DNA of 64,000 bases from an uncultured Eubacteriales bacterium (lineage in GTDB: Bacteria; Bacillota; Clostridia; Oscillospirales; CAG-272), in assembly GCA_934371135.1 (NCBI GenBank), contig CAKRNO010000002.1:69708-133707 (forward strand), written 5' to 3'. The position numbers and the translations under genes are program-made. Under the pieces are notes generated by a model, which was not told where the DNA came from, made no database searches, and saw only the letters and a program-made list of their open reading frames with translations. Shown here piece after piece: positions 55,920 to 58,336 of this stretch (positions are counted from its first letter, which is position 1; each line of letters begins with the position of its first letter).

Positions 55920-56711
55920 ATGAACAAAAACAGTTTCCGCAAAGTGACACTCGCAAAGGGCGAGGTCGCCGTCTACGACGCCGGTACGCTCCGGCTCCAC
56001 GCCTACAAGACCAACGACCCGATGAGCGATGAGGTCTTCATCGTCGAAAAGGACGGGCAGGCGGTCGTTATTGAATCCCCCTGCTTCCGCGACAACATCG
56101 CCGAGCTGACCGCCTACCTTTCCGGTCTGCGCGTAGCCGGTGTCCTCGTCGCCTACCATGCCGCAGGCGCCACATTCCTGCCGGACGTACCGAAGTACGC
56201 AACGCAGAACGCCGTCGCCTACTCCGAGGACGGCGGCGGGAAGGCGCTCATCACGGGCTTTACCGCCGCGTTCGGAGACGCGTTTGACCATTCCGTCCAC
56301 CGGGTCACCCATCTCCTCGACGCCGGGGAGACCACCATCGGCGGTATCACCTTTGTGATCCACCCGACGCACGAGGCGTTCGACGTCGAGATCCCCGAGC
56401 TCAACGCGGTCTACACGCACATGCTCGGGCATGACTGCCACTCCATCGTCGCCGGCGGGGCACACGCGGACGCGATGATTGCCGAGCTCCGCGGCTATAT
56501 CGCCAAGGGGTATGACATGATCCTGACCTCCCACTACACCCCCGAGGATCTGAAGGACGCCGAGACGAAGATCGCCTACCTGCAGGATCTCCAGCGCATC
56601 GCTGCCGAAAGCCGGAGCAAGGAGGACTTCCGCGCGGCGGTCGCCGCCCGCTACCCGCAGTACAGCGGCGGAAATTATCTCGACATGACGGCAGGCTTCT
56701 TCTTTGCCTGA
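55920..56711 (+). CDS. Hypothetical protein, possibly a degenerate metallo-beta-lactamase fold
   Basis: 263 aa. AAGGAG SD 8 nt before the ATG. Beta-strand/His pattern (VVIESP, VLVAYHAAG, FVIHPTHEAF, THMLGHDCH, LTSHYTPED) is reminiscent of MBL-fold proteins, but the HxHxDH motif is not intact. Confidence 0.55.
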   Translation: MNKNSFRKVTLAKGEVAVYDAGTLRLHAYKTNDPMSDEVFIVEKDGQAVVIESPCFRDNIAELTAYLSGLRVAGVLVAYHAAGATFLPDVPKYATQNAVAYSEDGGGKALITGFTAAFGDAFDHSVHRVTHLLDAGETTIGGITFVIHPTHEAFDVEIPELNAVYTHMLGHDCHSIVAGGAHADAMIAELRGYIAKGYDMILTSHYTPEDLKDAETKIAYLQDLQRIAAESRSKEDFRAAVAARYPQYSGGNYLDMTAGFFFA

Positions 56712-56712
56712 C

Positions 56713-57486
56713 ATGACGCAAGCCGAGCGCAGGCATTATCTGATCCGCGCTCTCGCCGAGGAGCGCGGTACGGCAGTGCCCCTGCCGACGGGGGCGGACG
56801 AGCAGCGGCGCCTGCTCCGCGCGCTACTCAACCTCCGCCCTCCCCTGCCCGCGGATGCGACGTTTCTCCGTGTGCAGGATGCGTATCTGCGAGAGGAAAC
56901 GCGGCGGCACGGTGTCACGGATGTCGGAAGTCTTGCGCCCGTGCGCCCCGGTATCTGCCTTTGGCAGGGCGACATCACCACGCTCCGGTGCGACGCGATC
57001 GTCAACGCGGCGAACAGCGCGCTCCTCGGCTGCTTCTGCCCGAATCACAGCTGTATCGACAACGCCATCCACACCTATGCCGGGGTGCAGCTGCGCCTTG
57101 CCTGCGCGGACCTCATGCGGGCACAGGAGCATGACGAGCCGACCGGCGGCGCTAAAATCACACCGGCATACAACCTCCCGTGCCGGTACGTCCTCCACAC
57201 CGTCGGGCCCATCGTGGCAGGGCGGCTGACGGGAGAGCACCGCCGGGCGCTCGAAGCCTGCTATCTCTCCTGCCTCACGCTGGCGCAGGAGCACGGCATC
57301 CGCCATATCACCTTCCCCTGCATCTCCACGGGTGAGTTTCACTTTCCCGGGGAGGCGGCGGCACAGATCGCCGTCCGCACGGTGGAGCGTTACCGGGCGG
57401 GGAATGAAAACGCACCCGAGGTGATCTTCAATGTCTTTAAAGAACAGGATCTCTTTCTTTACCGGCGGCTGCTCGGCTGTGACTGA
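56713..57486 (+). CDS. Macrodomain protein, Zn-type (protein ADP-ribose hydrolase of the sirtuin-linked class)
   Basis: [46 protein letters not shown]...VLHTVGP and [12 protein letters not shown]. ATG 56713 lies 2 nt after the upstream stop; an alternative TTG at 56704 overlaps it. About 85-aa helical N-terminal extension. Confidence 0.85.
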   Translation: [257 protein letters not shown]

Positions 57487-58336
57487 CCGGCTCCGCTCCG
57501 CGCTCGACCGTGCGGACGCGGTCGTCATCGGCGCGGGTGCCGGGCTCTCCGCGGCGGCGGGCTATACCTATGACGGCGAGCGGTTCCGCCGCCATTTCGC
57601 GGATTTTGAAGCCGCGTACGGCTTCCGCGATATGTACACCGGCGGATTCTACCCTTACGCCTCACCGGAAGAATACTGGGCGTACTGGAGCCGCTATATC
57701 TTCATCAACCGCTATGAGGACGCCCCGAAGCCTCTGTACCGGACGCTCCTGCACCTCGTCCGGGAGAAGGACTATTTCGCGCTCACCACCAACGTTGACC
57801 ACTGTTTCCAGAAGGCAGGCTTTGACAAAAAGCGCCTGTTTTATACGCAGGGGGACTATGGGCTGTTCCAGTGCAGTGCACCCTGCTGCCAAAAGACGTG
57901 GGATAACGAAGCTGTGATCCGGCAGATGGTCGCAGAGCAGCGTGACCGCCGTATTCCGACAGACCTCCTCCCGCGCTGCCCCTATTGCGGGCGCCCTGCC
58001 ACCGTGAACCTGCGCGCCGACGACCTCTTTGTCGAGGATGCCGGCTGGCACGCGGCGGCGGAGCGCTATGCGGATTTCCTGCGTACGCGCGGACGGCAGA
58101 GGGTGCTGTACCTGGAGCTCGGCGTCGGCTACAACACCCCAGGCATCATCAAGTACCCATTCTGGCAGATGACGGCGAGGAACCCCCGCGCCGTCTTTGC
58201 CTCGGTGAACCTCGGCGGCACCTTTGCTCCCCCGGAGATCGCCGACCGCTCCCTTTGCCTCACGGGTGATATCGGAGAGGTCCTGACCGCCCTCGACAAA
58301 GGCGGTCAGGACGGGCGTATCACCGTGGAGCCGTAA
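57431..58336 (+). CDS. SIR2-family protein, macrodomain-linked class M sirtuin (probable NAD-dependent protein ADP-ribosyltransferase)
   Basis: VVIGAGAGLSAAAG, TTNVDHCF, zinc ribbon CSAPCC...CPYCG. ATG 57431 has a GAGGTG SD 7 nt upstream and lies 56 nt inside the macro gene. An alternative GTG at 57479 would overlap by 8 nt. Confidence 0.8.
   Translation: MSLKNRISFFTGGCSAVTDRLRSALDRADAVVIGAGAGLSAAAGYTYDGERFRRHFADFEAAYGFRDMYTGGFYPYASPEEYWAYWSRYIFINRYEDAPKPLYRTLLHLVREKDYFALTTNVDHCFQKAGFDKKRLFYTQGDYGLFQCSAPCCQKTWDNEAVIRQMVAEQRDRRIPTDLLPRCPYCGRPATVNLRADDLFVEDAGWHAAAERYADFLRTRGRQRVLYLELGVGYNTPGIIKYPFWQMTARNPRAVFASVNLGGTFAPPEIADRSLCLTGDIGEVLTALDKGGQDGRITVEP

What the first reader, a model, noticed from the sequence alone, without database searches (positions are those of the whole stretch)
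55920..58336. Zn-macrodomain plus class-M sirtuin (ADP-ribosyl writer/eraser) operon with an unrecognised MBL-like first gene and none of the canonical partners
Seen in sequence: three plus-strand genes are tightly packed. The 263-aa MBL-like ORF stops at 56711. The macro gene starts at ATG 56713, or at TTG 56704 overlapping that stop. The sirtuin ATG 57431 has its own GAGGTG SD and lies 56 nt inside the macro gene. In the macrodomain, the usual glycine-rich loop is replaced by a Cys/His insert ([23 protein letters not shown]), which I recall as the hallmark of the zinc-containing macrodomains linked to sirtuins in S. aureus. The sirtuin keeps GAGAGLS, TTNVD and a Cys4 ribbon. It has Q in YTQGDYG roughly where canonical sirtuins carry the catalytic His; that position needs an alignment to confirm. 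Established knowledge: macrodomain-linked SirTM enzymes ADP-ribosylate a lipoylated GcvH-like carrier and the macrodomain reverses it. The described operons also encode GcvH-L, LplA2 and a luciferase-like monooxygenase. None of those is present here; the neighbours are serS and pflA. Instead an uncharacterised degenerate MBL-fold protein leads the operon, and an HxlR regulator is divergent. Inference: the substrate and physiological role of this writer/eraser pair are open. The MBL-like protein could be a target, an accessory factor or a third enzymatic step.
Basis: partly seen in the sequence, partly recalled or inferred. Interest (0 to 1): 0.72.

Follow-up and report, generated by a model that had tools for sequence, protein, structure and literature searches.

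The report
Redox-switch operon with ADP-ribosylation pair
A gut Clostridium operon joins an uncharacterised metallo-beta-lactamase-fold protein to a protein-ADP-ribosylating sirtuin and its zinc-macrodomain eraser next to a thiol-sensing HxlR-type regulator gene; that regulator also accompanies these supposedly stand-alone writer/eraser pairs in other Clostridia and in methanogens, which gives testable candidates for their unknown targets and trigger.

Summary
Window 55920-58336 holds three tightly coupled + strand genes.
- A 263-aa protein ("X263") with no Pfam, NCBIfam or PDB sequence match.
- A Zn-macrodomain (NAAN, Cx4HxC, Dx3H, N-terminal extension).
- A class-M sirtuin (N121, Q140-G141, R195, Cys4 ribbon).

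X263 folds as a metallo-beta-lactamase, but HxHxDH is reduced to one His. The family-wide invariant polar residues are E52, H80, H167, H174, H205 and E209.

- Pairs without GcvH-L/LplA2 are already a published category.
- X263 is usually followed by Macro-SirTM: 37 of 49 species-level loci.
- Only 5 of 44 SirTM-selected loci carry X263. The others carry PNPOx-like, PNPOx-ferredoxin, nitroreductase, riboflavin-type ECF or SnoaL genes in that slot.
- The constant element is the divergent HxlR regulator with a conserved operator (window 55795-55842).
- HxlR+X263 occurs without the pair in three distant lineages, including an archaeon.
- HxlR+Macro+SirTM occurs without cargo in Methanobrevibacter, including the published "minimal" M. 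oralis locus.

Best reading: a thiol-stress operon under HxlR control in which reversible ADP-ribosylation is co-expressed with a modular redox effector. The SirTM target remains unresolved. This is a new variant of a known kind.

The parts
55382..55711 (-). HxlR/DUF24-family winged-helix regulator. 109 aa from GTG 55711, or 106 aa from ATG 55702 as called on other assemblies. Carries the N-terminal 'CPV' cysteine (C13).
   Evidence: Pfam HxlR E 6e-32. Nearest NCBIfam models are the redox TFs RrpB/RrpA, below cut-off. The CPV cysteine is at least 90% conserved in 119 homologues and is also present in the archaeal and Saccharibacteria copies. It corresponds to the sensing Cys14 of HypR and Cys6 of YodB (PMC3351151).
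55753..55781 (-). Promoter-like site for the HxlR gene (TTGCAA-17-CATAAT, with TG extension).
   Evidence: Consensus scan only.
55795..55842 (.). Conserved regulatory element, the presumed HxlR operator: GGTTAC-N6-(degenerate arm), then AAAGTGCGTACTTTAC (an AAAGT-N4-ACTTT palindrome).
   Evidence: Found in 59 of 60 HxlR/X263 intergenic regions, 66-144 nt before the X263 ATG. Consensus aGTTaCC-N4-GGTAACTa-N5-ACAAAAAAGTGCkTACTTTACA. Occurs once in the window against 0.02 expected. Also lies beside HxlR in about 27 of 42 SirTM-selected loci that have other cargo. Present in the Saccharibacteria, alphaproteobacterial and Family XIII loci. GTTAC-N6-GTAAC-type repeats occur in the Methanobrevibacter intergenic regions.
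55834..55862 (+). Promoter-like site for the operon (TTTACA-17-TATCCT). Its -35 lies inside the conserved element.
   Evidence: the overlap with the element comes.
55920..56711 (+). X263: a 263-aa protein of an unnamed family with a metallo-beta-lactamase fold and a non-canonical His/Glu constellation. RBS AAGGAG at 55907-55912.
   Evidence: No Pfam, NCBIfam or PDB sequence hit. AF2 model pLDDT 84.3, pTM 0.85. Foldseek to MBL-superfamily structures at probability 1.0, E 2e-8, TM 0.45-0.62. Weak profile hit to glyoxalase-type 6T5K, aligning H80 with HxHxD while the xDH part is deleted. Family invariants over 167 sequences are E52, H80, H167, H174, H205 and E209.
56713..57486 (+). Zinc-dependent macrodomain (protein-ADP-ribose hydrolase, the 'eraser'). 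Its start lies 1 nt after the X263 stop.
   Evidence: Motifs: NAAN 98-101, C107-x4-H112-x-C114, D116-x3-H120, compared with Ariza 2024.
57431..58336 (+). Class-M sirtuin SirTM (protein ADP-ribosyltransferase, the 'writer'). SD GAGGTG at 57418-57423. Overlaps Macro by 56 nt.
   Evidence: PDB 5A3A at E 2.8e-71. N121, Q140-G141, R195, C148, C152, C183 and C186 are invariant, including in SpySirTM. These are the QG-R catalytic trio N118/Q137/R192.
58343..58364 (.). GC-rich hairpin (9 bp, 8 G-C pairs) between the SirTM stop and the convergent pflA. Terminator-like.
   Evidence: The scan called it on the - strand. The + strand tail is GTCGTTTT.

Best explanation
The locus is a composite stress operon controlled by a thiol-switch regulator.

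Regulation:
- A divergently transcribed HxlR/DUF24-type regulator carries the family's conserved N-terminal sensing cysteine.
- It binds a conserved operator that overlaps the -35 of the operon promoter.
- It most likely represses the operon until thiol-reactive oxidants or electrophiles (quinone, aldehyde, hypochlorite or diamide-type stress) modify that cysteine.

Output:
- One transcript then yields three proteins.
- (i) X263, an effector with a metallo-beta-lactamase fold and a rewired His4/Glu2 site. It is the old, primary target gene of this regulator type and most likely acts on a small reactive molecule.
- (ii) The Zn-macrodomain.
- (iii) SirTM. Together (ii) and (iii) impose and remove mono-ADP-ribosylation on a protein target while the stress programme is on.

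Modularity:
- In related genomes the slot held by X263 is filled instead by FMN/Fe-S reductases (PNPOx-like, PNPOx-ferredoxin, nitroreductase), a riboflavin-type ECF transporter component or SnoaL-like proteins.
- In Methanobrevibacter the slot is empty.
- The writer/eraser pair is therefore a portable 3' module of HxlR-headed redox operons. It is not a dedicated X263 system.

What is shown and what is inferred:
- Shown: gene identities, class residues, tight coupling, fold, conserved operator, and the neighbourhood statistics.
- Inferred: repression, the inducing signal, enzymatic activity of X263, and the identity of the SirTM target. My ranking of targets is a protein outside the operon or the cargo proteins first, then X263 specifically, then HxlR.
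For: Identities and residues.

Co-transcription:
- 1-nt and 56-nt junctions.
- No + strand terminator was called inside the operon.
- A hairpin follows SirTM.

Forward survey (GTDB species representatives):
- At least 590 genomes encode X263 relatives.
- 44 of 59 loci have Macro+SirTM downstream, and 52 of 61 have a divergent HxlR.
- 37 of 49 in the architecture catalogue have the pair. 17 of these are identical in layout to the window and 16 have PNPOx-Fer4 inserted.

Reverse survey (SirTM-selected):
- 35 of 44 loci have a divergent HxlR.
- Cargo is P, PF, ECF, Sno, NR or X, and X263 occurs in 5 of 44.

Operator:
- Present in 59 of 60 X263 loci.
- Unique in the window.
- Shared by operons with other cargo and by distant lineages.
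- Overlaps the promoter-like -35.

HxlR+X263 without the pair: Methanolapillus, a Saccharibacteria MAG and an alphaproteobacterial MAG.

HxlR+Macro+SirTM without cargo:
- M. oralis-type loci, and HxlR>Macro>SirTM beside a PNPOx gene in strain YE315.
- These carry GTTAC-N6-GTAAC-type repeats.

Sensing cysteine: conserved, and its role in DUF24 regulators is established (PMC3351151).

Published SirTM systems are tied to oxidative stress and flavin oxidoreductases (PMC4518038, PMC11490716, PMC12440151).

X263 fusions to ABM and SnoaL domains point to small-molecule chemistry.
Against: - There are no expression or biochemical data for any component.
- The first palindrome of the operator is degenerate in the window copy.
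- HxlR-family members can be activators (HypR), so 'repressor' is a guess based on overlap with the -35.
- HxlR genes are common next to small redox genes in Firmicutes. The pair could simply hitch-hike on such operons without mechanistic cross-talk.
- The surveys cover only X263 relatives at 67% identity or more, SirTMs 60-72% identical to the window's, and one archaeal genus.
- The metagenome loci are not de-replicated, and several share identical layouts.
- The Methanobrevibacter loci are syntenic, so they amount to about two independent arrangements.
- X263 metal binding is inferred from conservation only.
Confidence: 0.6

Rival explanations
1. X263 is the dedicated substrate of this SirTM and plays the role of GcvH-L. 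SirTM ADP-ribosylates X263 to gate its activity, and the Zn-macrodomain reverses the mark.
For: - X263 occupies the position directly upstream of Macro that gcvH-L holds in the S. aureus operon (own knowledge of that gene order; the operon composition is).
- The stop and start codons are 1 nt apart.
- 37 of 49 X263 loci carry the pair. Two further loci (three if the short locus L039 is counted) have X263 followed directly by SirTM without Macro.
- More divergent X263 copies (P0121 type, L164/L166/L170) are also directly followed by Macro.
- Minimal-operon Zn-Macros do not act on GcvH-L, so another target must exist.
Against: - Only 5 of 44 SirTM-selected loci have X263, and the closest SirTM relatives of the window carry other cargo.
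- Linked and unlinked X263 copies are indistinguishable. No residue is specific to linked copies, mean identities are 0.79/0.78/0.78, and 12 of 13 unlinked copies have a linked copy as nearest relative.
- HxlR+X263 exists without the pair in three distant lineages.
- Methanobrevibacter pairs have no X263.
- C55 and C173 do not track linkage.
Confidence: 0.2
2. The target is the HxlR regulator itself. ADP-ribosylation, reversed by the Zn-macrodomain, feeds back on the thiol switch and tunes or resets the stress response.
For: - HxlR is the only protein that co-occurs with the pair across Clostridia (35 of 44 loci) and Methanobrevibacter.
- In M. oralis-type loci it is the only other gene of the unit.
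- In YE315 it lies directly upstream of Macro on the same strand and may be co-transcribed.
- In characterised systems the substrate is encoded in the operon.
Against: - A divergent local regulator is fully explained by ordinary transcriptional control.
- The only characterised SirTM modifies an Asp, not a Cys.
- No direct evidence of any kind.
Confidence: 0.08
3. This is the classical mechanism with remote partners. The pair acts on a lipoylated GcvH-type carrier or another lipoyl protein encoded elsewhere in the genome, and X263 is functionally unrelated cargo.
For: - GcvH-L is the only SirTM substrate known.
- The rest of the genome could not be examined.
Against: - No GcvH or LplA homologue in the 64-kb window, and no GcvH hit in any of the 80 SirTM-selected loci.
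- Zn-Macros from minimal operons and from fusions cannot demodify GcvH-L, and they lack the basic surface patch of the extended-operon enzymes (Ariza 2024).
- The window's Macro is as close to the minimal-type M. oralis enzyme as to SauMacro.
Confidence: 0.1
4. Chance or purely historical adjacency. The three genes are not functionally linked. Alternatively, the cluster is an anti-phage SIR2/macro defence island.
For: - The pair has been gained and lost repeatedly next to X263.
- SIR2 and macro domains occur in defence systems (own knowledge).
Against: - The linkage recurs in 37 of 49 species-level loci and in several architectures, with conserved 1-nt and overlapping junctions.
- The operator is shared.
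- No PADLOC model matches any of the four proteins.
- The flanks are housekeeping genes: serS, RNase III, pflAB.
- The sirtuin has the ADP-ribosyltransferase-type QG-R site of SirTM.
Confidence: 0.04

Closest known systems
Minimal SirTM/Zn-Macro operon (e.g. Methanobrevibacter oralis MorMacro/SirTM; lone pairs in Clostridiaceae, Lachnospiraceae, Enterococcaceae, Treponema) - Rack 2015, Ariza 2024
   Same: - Adjacent, overlapping Macro then SirTM genes.
- Every Zn-Macro and SirTM class motif is present.
- No GcvH-L or LplA2.
- The target is unknown.
- The window Macro matches the M. oralis structure 8RSI at E 4.6e-72.
   Different: - Here the pair is translationally coupled to an upstream MBL-fold gene and sits under an HxlR-type regulator with a conserved operator.
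- This study also finds an HxlR gene directly beside the 'minimal' M. oralis pair. The two primary papers do not mention it.
Extended SirTM operon of Staphylococcus aureus and Streptococcus pyogenes (GcvH-L, LplA2, Zn-Macro, SirTM, plus LLM/OYE flavin oxidoreductases)
   Same: - The writer/eraser enzymes are homologous (42% identity to SpySirTM) and the catalytic residues are identical.
- Both have an oxidative-stress context.
- Both are associated with flavin-dependent oxidoreductases, here in sister operons of the window.
- A candidate substrate gene lies immediately upstream of Macro.
   Different: - No GcvH-L, LplA2, LLM or OYE.
- The cargo is X263, or PNPOx/nitroreductase/ECF/SnoaL genes in relatives.
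- The regulator is of the HxlR type.
- Dependence on lipoylation is unlikely to apply.
Thiol-switch MarR/DUF24 (HxlR-family) regulons: YodB, CatR, HypR, HxlR of B. subtilis, QsrR of S. aureus
   Same: - A small winged-helix regulator with a conserved N-terminal Cys at the start of helix alpha1.
- It is divergent from the gene(s) it controls.
- It has palindromic operators.
- Its targets are typically flavin or nitro-reductases and other detoxifying enzymes.
   Different: - The operator sequence differs from the published HypR box (GTATCAAAATTGATAC).
- The regulated operon carries an ADP-ribosylation writer/eraser pair and an MBL-fold protein, which is not described for these regulons.
- The inducer is unknown.
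Metallo-beta-lactamase superfamily (closest folds: 8D2Z uncharacterised MBL protein, B1 lactamases VIM/NDM, alkylsulfatase PisA1, glyoxalase-type 6T5K)
   Same: An alpha-beta/beta-alpha sandwich fold (Foldseek probability 1.0). His residues lie at the positions of motifs 2, 3 and 5. A C-terminal helical extension resembles that of the 8D2Z/PisA1-type hits.
   Different: - HxHxDH is reduced to a single His (H80).
- No Pfam Lactamase_B match.
- A distinct invariant set: E52, H80, H167, H174, H205, E209.
- 12-15% identity to any solved structure.
- Function unknown.
Fungal Mfs1 macrodomain-SirTM fusion proteins
   Same: The same two catalytic modules, linked to oxidative stress. PDB 8RSN matches both window proteins (E 5e-27 and 2e-36).
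   Different: Here they are separate overlapping genes in a bacterial operon, with a regulator and cargo.

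Membership tests
Class-M sirtuin (SirTM) | The catalytic HG motif is replaced by QG (Spy Q137). | tested here: met
   Q140-G141 in YTQGDYG aligns with Spy Q137-G. It is invariant in 9 aligned SirTMs. Definition from Rack 2015.
Class-M sirtuin (SirTM) | The conserved Asn and Arg of the QG-R catalytic trio (Spy N118, R192). | tested here: met
   N121 (TTN) and R195 (NLR) align and are invariant. Trio definition.
Class-M sirtuin (SirTM) | Sirtuin Rossmann NAD motif and a Cys4 zinc ribbon. 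| tested here: met
   GAGAGLS at residue 34. C148, C152, C183 and C186 are invariant. Sequence-level test only.
Class-M sirtuin (SirTM) | Genetic linkage to a Zn-macrodomain gene. | tested here: met
   Macro lies immediately upstream with a 56-nt overlap. The same holds in 43 of 47 SirTM-selected loci.
Class-M sirtuin (SirTM) | Robust protein mono-ADP-ribosyltransferase activity and no deacylase activity. | not testable with these tools
   Requires enzyme assays.
Zinc-dependent macrodomain (Zn-Macro) | MacroD-type domain with the NAAN motif. | tested here: met
   Pfam Macro E 7e-36. NAAN at residues 98-101.
Zinc-dependent macrodomain (Zn-Macro) | A Zn-loop with Cx4HxC replaces the glycine-rich catalytic loop. 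| tested here: met
   C107-FCPN-H112-S-C114. It aligns with the Zn-loops of 8RSI and 5KIV. Definition.
Zinc-dependent macrodomain (Zn-Macro) | Conserved Dx3H motif. | tested here: met
   D116-NAI-H120. Definition.
Zinc-dependent macrodomain (Zn-Macro) | N-terminal three-helix-bundle extension. | tested here: met
   About 80 residues precede the macro core (the Pfam match starts at residue 97). They align with the N-terminal regions of 8RSI and 5KIV from residue 3-5. The helical structure itself was not modelled.
Zinc-dependent macrodomain (Zn-Macro) | Curated equivalog model NF003163 (protein-ADP-ribose hydrolase). | tested here: met
   329.7 bits against a cut-off of 272.
Extended SirTM operon (Staphylococcus/Lactobacillales type) | GcvH-L carrier gene adjacent to the pair. 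| tested here: not met
Extended SirTM operon (Staphylococcus/Lactobacillales type) | LplA2 lipoate-protein ligase gene in the operon. | tested here: not met
The flanking genes are HxlR and pflA.
Extended SirTM operon (Staphylococcus/Lactobacillales type) | Associated LLM and/or OYE flavin oxidoreductase. | tested here: not met
   None among the window ORFs examined. Related operons carry other flavoproteins instead: PNPOx, nitroreductase.
Extended SirTM operon (Staphylococcus/Lactobacillales type) | Partners encoded elsewhere in the same genome. | not testable with these tools
Metallo-beta-lactamase superfamily (X263) | Alpha-beta/beta-alpha MBL fold. | tested here: met
   AF2 pLDDT 84.3, pTM 0.85. 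199 PDB matches at E up to 1e-3, the listed top 50 all MBL-superfamily members at probability 1.0.
Metallo-beta-lactamase superfamily (X263) | HxHxDH plus the downstream H/D/H metal-binding motifs. | tested here: not met
   Only H80 remains at motif 2 and the xDH part is deleted. The invariant set is E52, H80, H167, H174, H205, E209.
Metallo-beta-lactamase superfamily (X263) | Match to Pfam Lactamase_B-type models. | tested here: not met
   No Pfam hit for the window protein, for 30 relatives, or for distant and fused members in the X263 region.
HxlR/DUF24 thiol-switch regulators | HxlR-type winged-helix domain. | tested here: met
   PF01638, E 6e-32, covering 87 of 91 profile positions.
HxlR/DUF24 thiol-switch regulators | Conserved reactive Cys at the N-terminus of helix alpha1. 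| tested here: met
   C13 in LPVCPV. CPV is at least 90% conserved in 119 homologues. It corresponds to HypR Cys14, YodB Cys6 and CatR Cys7.
HxlR/DUF24 thiol-switch regulators | Binds a palindromic operator at the regulated promoter, and its DNA binding or activity changes when the cysteine is modified. | not testable with these tools
   A conserved palindromic element overlapping the -35 was found. Binding and redox response need EMSA or footprinting.
Anti-phage SIR2/macro defence systems | Match to known defence-system protein models. | tested here: not met
   No PADLOC hit for any of the four proteins.

The most novel reading that the evidence does not exclude
In these HxlR-headed operons the SirTM/Zn-macrodomain pair reversibly ADP-ribosylates a protein encoded in the operon. 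That protein is either the MBL-fold effector X263 (with the flavoprotein cargo in sister operons) or the thiol-sensing HxlR regulator itself. This would be the first SirTM substrate other than GcvH-L. It would also be a new layer of control in which a post-translational ADP-ribose mark gates or resets a redox/electrophile stress regulon, conserved from gut Clostridia to methanogenic archaea.
Probability: 0.25. Interest if true: 0.85.

Novelty: new variant of a known kind. Interest (0 to 1): 0.64.

Why it matters
GcvH-L is the only known SirTM substrate. The field states openly that the targets and physiological role of the many SirTM/Zn-Macro pairs outside the staphylococcal and streptococcal extended operon are unknown (Ariza 2024).

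This locus and its relatives show that the 'lone' pairs of gut Clostridia and of Methanobrevibacter are not alone.
- They sit beside an HxlR-type thiol-switch regulator that has a recognisable operator.
- In Clostridia they are co-transcribed with a small, defined set of redox cargo genes. X263 is one of these.

That turns an open question into concrete experiments.
- A short list of candidate substrates: X263, the PNPOx-type proteins and HxlR.
- A predicted class of inducer: thiol-reactive oxidants and electrophiles.
- A DNA site to test.

It also defines a widespread, unnamed protein family with an MBL fold and a non-canonical metal-site signature. The family has at least 590 species-level genomes in the GTDB-based collection and 687 representatives among the 50%-identity clusters. 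The organisms are abundant human and animal gut commensals and methanogens, so the system bears on how strict anaerobes cope with host- or diet-derived oxidants and electrophiles.

Tried and rejected
1. Naming X263 by sequence. Pfam, NCBIfam, PDB phmmer and a family profile against PDB gave nothing usable apart from a weak glyoxalase-type hit at E 0.11.

2. 'C55 and C173 mark the pair-linked subfamily, perhaps as Cys-ADP-ribosylation sites.' Rejected. The distant unlinked copies from Methanolapillus, Saccharibacteria and Family XIII keep both cysteines.

3. 'Linked X263 copies retain residues that unlinked copies lose.' Rejected. No discriminating column was found and unlinked copies are interspersed among linked ones.

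4. Anti-phage defence reading. No PADLOC hits.

5. GcvH/LplA in the window or in SirTM loci. The rest of the genome could not be searched.

6. The metagenome scan was meant to sample diverse SirTMs. It returned only relatives at 60-72% identity, mostly from gut samples. It still served as a sample selected on SirTM and not on X263. Breadth was recovered partly through the M. oralis Zn-Macro probe.

7. Complex prediction (X263-SirTM, HxlR-SirTM) and inspection of the metal-site geometry were not possible. The structure tool takes single window-derived chains and does not return coordinates.

8. Rfam over the window found nothing in or near the operon.

9. Literature searches for HxlR with macrodomain and sirtuin, and a review of all 36 'SirTM' full-text hits, found no earlier description of this operon context.

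Full report
**1. Observation**

The region holds three + strand ORFs.
- 55920-56711 (263 aa, here called X263)
- 56713-57486 (257 aa from ATG; a TTG at 56704 is an alternative start)
- 57431-58336 (301 aa)

The junctions are tight. The X263 stop and the next ATG are 1 nt apart. The third gene overlaps the second by 56 nt and has GAGGTG at 57418-57423. X263 has AAGGAG at 55907-55912. Gene calls made independently on other assemblies of the identical locus give 263, 257 and 301 aa, and a 106-aa HxlR. The window has 60.5% GC and its flanks are housekeeping genes: pheT, serS, RNase III, pflA, pflB and a ribosomal-protein cluster.

**2. The writer and the eraser**

The second protein is a Zn-macrodomain.
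- It matches Pfam Macro (E 7e-36).
- It passes the curated NCBIfam equivalog NF003163 'protein-ADP-ribose hydrolase' (329.7 bits, cut-off 272).
- Its best solved relatives are the Zn-Macros 8RSI, 5KIV and 8RSL at E about 5e-72. A 98%-identical Methanobrevibacter protein (P0426) shows that 8RSI is the M. oralis enzyme.
- It carries every feature that Ariza 2024 uses to define the subfamily: NAAN (98-101), the Cx4HxC Zn-loop (C107, H112, C114), Dx3H (D116, H120) and an N-terminal extension of about 80 residues that aligns with the three-helix bundle region.

The third protein is a class-M sirtuin.
- It barely registers with Pfam SIR2 (17.6 bits).
- It matches S. pyogenes SirTM (5A3A) at E 2.8e-71.
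- N121, Q140-G141 and R195 align with the published QG-R catalytic trio N118/Q137/R192. Together with the four zinc-ribbon cysteines they are invariant in an alignment that includes SpySirTM.

**3. The first gene**

X263 has no Pfam, NCBIfam or PDB sequence match. No database gives it a name.

An AlphaFold2 model built on 30 homologues is confident (pLDDT 84.3, pTM 0.85). Foldseek places it in the metallo-beta-lactamase superfamily at probability 1.0, E down to 2e-8, TM 0.45-0.62 and 12-15% identity. The top hits are an uncharacterised MBL protein (8D2Z), the B1 lactamases VIM and NDM, and the alkylsulfatase PisA1.

The only sequence-level link is a weak profile hit to a glyoxalase-type Zn hydrolase (6T5K, E 0.11). 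It aligns H80 with the HxHxD motif, and the 'xDH' part is deleted.

Across 167 diverse family members (27-70% identity to the window protein), the near-invariant polar residues are E52, H80, H167, H174, H205 and E209. C55, H171, C173 and H182 are much less conserved: present in 95-118 of the 167 sequences, though retained in some distant members. 'MBL-like and degenerate' is therefore right. The family keeps a conserved His4/Glu2 constellation that looks like a rewired metal site. I could not check its geometry.

The family is compact, with 687 representatives at E up to 1e-3 among 1.8 billion clustered proteins. Some members have signal-peptide-like N-termini (read by eye). Others are fused to ABM monooxygenase, SnoaL/DUF4440, SLH, LysM or Big_2 domains. 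This suggests small-molecule chemistry that does not depend on ADP-ribosylation.

**4. Is X263 a conserved partner of the pair? Forward direction**

I analysed the 80 closest (67-80% identity). They are Oscillospiraceae, Ruminococcaceae, Lachnospiraceae and Clostridium leptum DSM 753.
- Of 59 loci with at least 3.5 kb downstream, 44 have Macro+SirTM on the same strand, 2 have SirTM only, 1 has Macro only and 12 have neither.
- 52 of 61 have a divergent HxlR.

In the architecture catalogue, 37 of 49 evaluable loci carry the pair.
- 17 have exactly the window's layout, <HxlR | X263> Macro> SirTM>.
- 16 have a protein of about 205 aa, PNPOx-like plus 2x[4Fe-4S], inserted before Macro.

**5. Reverse direction**

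A metagenome scan with a SirTM alignment returned 80 loci whose SirTMs are 60-72% identical to the window's.
- Of 47 with at least 3.6 kb upstream, 43 have Macro adjacent but only 5 have X263.
- In the catalogue (44 evaluable loci), 35 have a divergent HxlR within 6 kb.

The genes between HxlR and Macro are:
- a small PNPOx-like protein (10 loci as the only cargo);
- SnoaL2-PNPOx-ECF(riboflavin-type S component)-PNPOx/Fer4 (5 loci);
- X263 (5 loci);
- nitroreductase variants, DUF1848 and others.

About 3-5 loci are bare pairs. These loci are not de-replicated, so the counts are descriptive only.

The asymmetry is clear. X263 usually comes with the pair, but the pair usually comes with something else.

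**6. What is constant: the regulator and its operator**

A roughly 45-bp element occurs in 59 of 60 HxlR/X263 intergenic regions, at 66-144 nt upstream of the X263 ATG. Its consensus is aGTTaCC-N4-GGTAACTa-N5-ACAAAAAAGTGCkTACTTTACA.

The window copy is at 55795-55842.
- Its second box, AAAGTGCGTACTTTAC (55823-55838), is intact.
- Its first palindrome has a degenerate right arm.
- The second box overlaps the -35 of the only + strand promoter-like site upstream of X263 (TTTACA-17-TATCCT, 55834-55862).
- It occurs once in 64 kb, against 0.02 expected.

The same box lies beside HxlR in about 27 of 42 SirTM-selected loci that have an upstream HxlR, most of which carry other cargo. There are only 42 hits in 1.5 Mb of scanned strand.

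The HxlR proteins share an N-terminal CPV cysteine (C13 here). It is at least 90% conserved in 119 sequences. It corresponds to the sensing Cys14 of HypR and Cys6/7 of YodB and CatR at the start of helix alpha1. This family senses diamide, hypochlorite, quinones or aldehydes and typically controls flavin reductases (PMC3351151).

**7. Deeper phylogeny separates the two linkages**

Divergent X263 homologues (about 45% identity) again lie divergent to an HxlR gene, with no Macro or SirTM nearby.
- They come from the archaeon Methanolapillus millepedarum, a Saccharibacteria MAG and an alphaproteobacterial MAG.
- A Family XIII copy has neither HxlR nor the pair.
- The operator-like box is recognisable in three of these four loci.

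Conversely, Zn-Macro/SirTM pairs of Methanobrevibacter sit directly beside an HxlR gene with no cargo.
- This includes M. oralis, the source of the published 'minimal operon containing only the pair'.
- The layout is <HxlR | Macro> SirTM>, with intergenic regions of 111-144 bp that carry GTAAC-N6-GTTAC/GTTAC repeats.
- In strain YE315 the layout is HxlR> Macro> SirTM>, with a PNPOx gene upstream and GTTAC-N6-GTAAC boxes.

Neither Rack 2015 nor Ariza 2024 mentions a regulator. No full-text hit combines HxlR with macrodomain and sirtuin. None of the 36 'SirTM' papers has a title or abstract suggesting this context.

**8. Tests of the 'X263 is the substrate' idea**

- Linked (47) and unlinked (13) X263 copies have the same mean identities (0.79, 0.78 and 0.78).
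- 12 of 13 unlinked copies have a linked copy as their nearest relative.
- No alignment column is conserved only in linked copies.
- The cysteines C55 and C173 are also present in distant unlinked copies.

The pair has therefore been gained or lost repeatedly without any visible change in the selection on X263. This does not exclude X263 as a substrate, but it argues against a dedicated, co-evolving substrate like GcvH-L.

Three things keep the idea alive: three loci where X263 is followed by SirTM without Macro, the 1-nt junction, and the position analogous to gcvH-L.

**9. Other rivals**

- No PADLOC defence model matches any of the four proteins.
- No GcvH or LplA homologue is in the window, and no GcvH in the 80 SirTM-selected loci.
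- No LLM/OYE-type ORF was seen among the window genes examined.
- Published work shows that Zn-Macros from minimal operons cannot demodify GcvH-L.
- Whether a gcvH/lplA module lies elsewhere in the genome could not be tested.

**10. Mechanism proposed**

Shown:
- the gene identities and class residues;
- the operon-like coupling, with no internal + strand terminator called and a GC-rich hairpin at 58343-58364 after SirTM;
- the conserved operator at the promoter;
- the modular neighbourhoods.

Inferred:
- The HxlR-type regulator holds the promoter, probably as a repressor because one box overlaps the -35. HypR-like activation is possible.
- Thiol-reactive stress relieves this control.
- X263 acts as the effector on a reactive small molecule.
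- SirTM and Zn-Macro impose a reversible ADP-ribose mark on a protein during the response.

This fits the documented link between SirTM systems, oxidative stress and flavin oxidoreductases. I put 0.6 on this overall logic. For the target I put 0.2 on X263, about 0.1 on a remote lipoyl carrier, about 0.08 on HxlR and the remainder on another protein.

**11. Comparison and novelty**

The enzymes are ordinary members of the SirTM and Zn-Macro families. A pair without GcvH-L/LplA2 is a published category.

As far as the searchable literature shows, three things are new.
1. An unnamed MBL-fold family with a non-canonical signature is translationally coupled to the pair in many gut Clostridia.
2. 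An HxlR-type regulator and operator are the conserved companion of 'lone' pairs across two domains of life.
3. There is a modular set of flavin/Fe-S cargo genes.

I rate it a new variant of a known kind. Interest is moderate to high, because it makes the open question of non-GcvH-L SirTM targets and triggers directly testable.

**12. Limits**

- All functional statements are inferences from sequence and context.
- The surveys are restricted to close relatives and one archaeal genus.
- The metagenome loci are redundant.
- The Methanobrevibacter loci are largely syntenic.
- The metal site of X263 was not verified structurally.
- Complexes could not be modelled.

Noticed in passing
window 55036-55422 (-) and 54263-55093 (-): A small ORF with a weak TfoX_N-like hit (128 aa here, 108 aa in other gene calls) overlaps the 3' end of the HxlR gene by about 40 nt. 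It is in turn overlapped by an RNase III gene (Ribonuclease_3 + dsrm). HxlR may therefore head its own minus-strand operon that includes RNase III. This layout was absent from the few other HxlR loci whose gene tables I read (L001, L007).
   Followed up: partly
window 55795-55812: In the window and its closest relatives (L013-L016), the right arm of the first operator palindrome (GTTACC-N4-GGTAAC in most species) is replaced. In the window the replacement is a second copy of GTGCGT. The promoter-proximal box is intact. This may mean altered regulator occupancy in this lineage.
   Followed up: partly
L098, L110, L119, L127, L160 (about 2.6-2.8 kb upstream of Macro): A small ORF of 65-95 aa encodes tandem Cys-rich repeats (AACGTACGAGDKEEKP)n and has no Pfam match. 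It recurs in the same five SirTM-selected loci, all of which also carry a nitroreductase-type gene upstream of the pair. It could be a metal- or electrophile-binding peptide.
   Followed up: no
L054, L061, L087, L091 (SirTM genes): A subset of SirTMs carries an insertion of about 17 residues (e.g. GYVIDVDGTLILPEGASPKM) in the small zinc-binding domain, just before the second Cys pair. Two of the four (L054, L061) are the loci where X263 is followed by SirTM with no macrodomain.
   Followed up: no
L039, L054, L061; L078: In three species X263 is followed directly by SirTM with no Zn-macrodomain within 7 kb, so there is a writer without its eraser. One species has Macro without SirTM.
   Followed up: partly
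L014 (CAVGEP010000193.1): A 3.7-kb contig labelled Alistipes communis carries a Clostridial-type HxlR-X263-Macro-SirTM locus, 78% identical to the window's X263. Most likely it is a mis-binned contig. The taxonomic labels of the short MAG contigs in these surveys should be read with care.
   Followed up: no
L063, L079, L114, L130 and others: A DUF1848 protein (about 310 aa, Pfam E 1.6e-96) is occasionally inserted immediately upstream of Macro in these operons. It is another recurring cargo of unknown function.
   Followed up: partly
P0155, P0151, P0188, P0212, P0129, P0171, P0184: Distant X263-family domains occur fused to ABM monooxygenase, SnoaL/DUF4440, SLH, LysM or Big_2/transglutaminase modules. 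Many unfused members have signal-peptide-like N-termini. So part of the family is probably extracytoplasmic.
   Followed up: partly
window 35428-35506 (-): Rfam S10-Clostridia ribosomal-protein leader (48.7 bits, gathering score 35.1) upstream of the ribosomal protein cluster at about 19.6-35.5 kb. It was the only Rfam match in the window. No T-box was called upstream of serS or pheST at the gathering threshold.
   Followed up: no
window 17485-18018 (-): An ORF that looks like rubrerythrin, judged by eye from its N-terminal sequence and not tested, lies next to a citrate-cycle-like cluster (HMGL-like, aconitase, isocitrate/isopropylmalate dehydrogenase at 12730-17304). It would be another oxidative-stress gene in the window but is not linked to the operon.
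   Followed up: no
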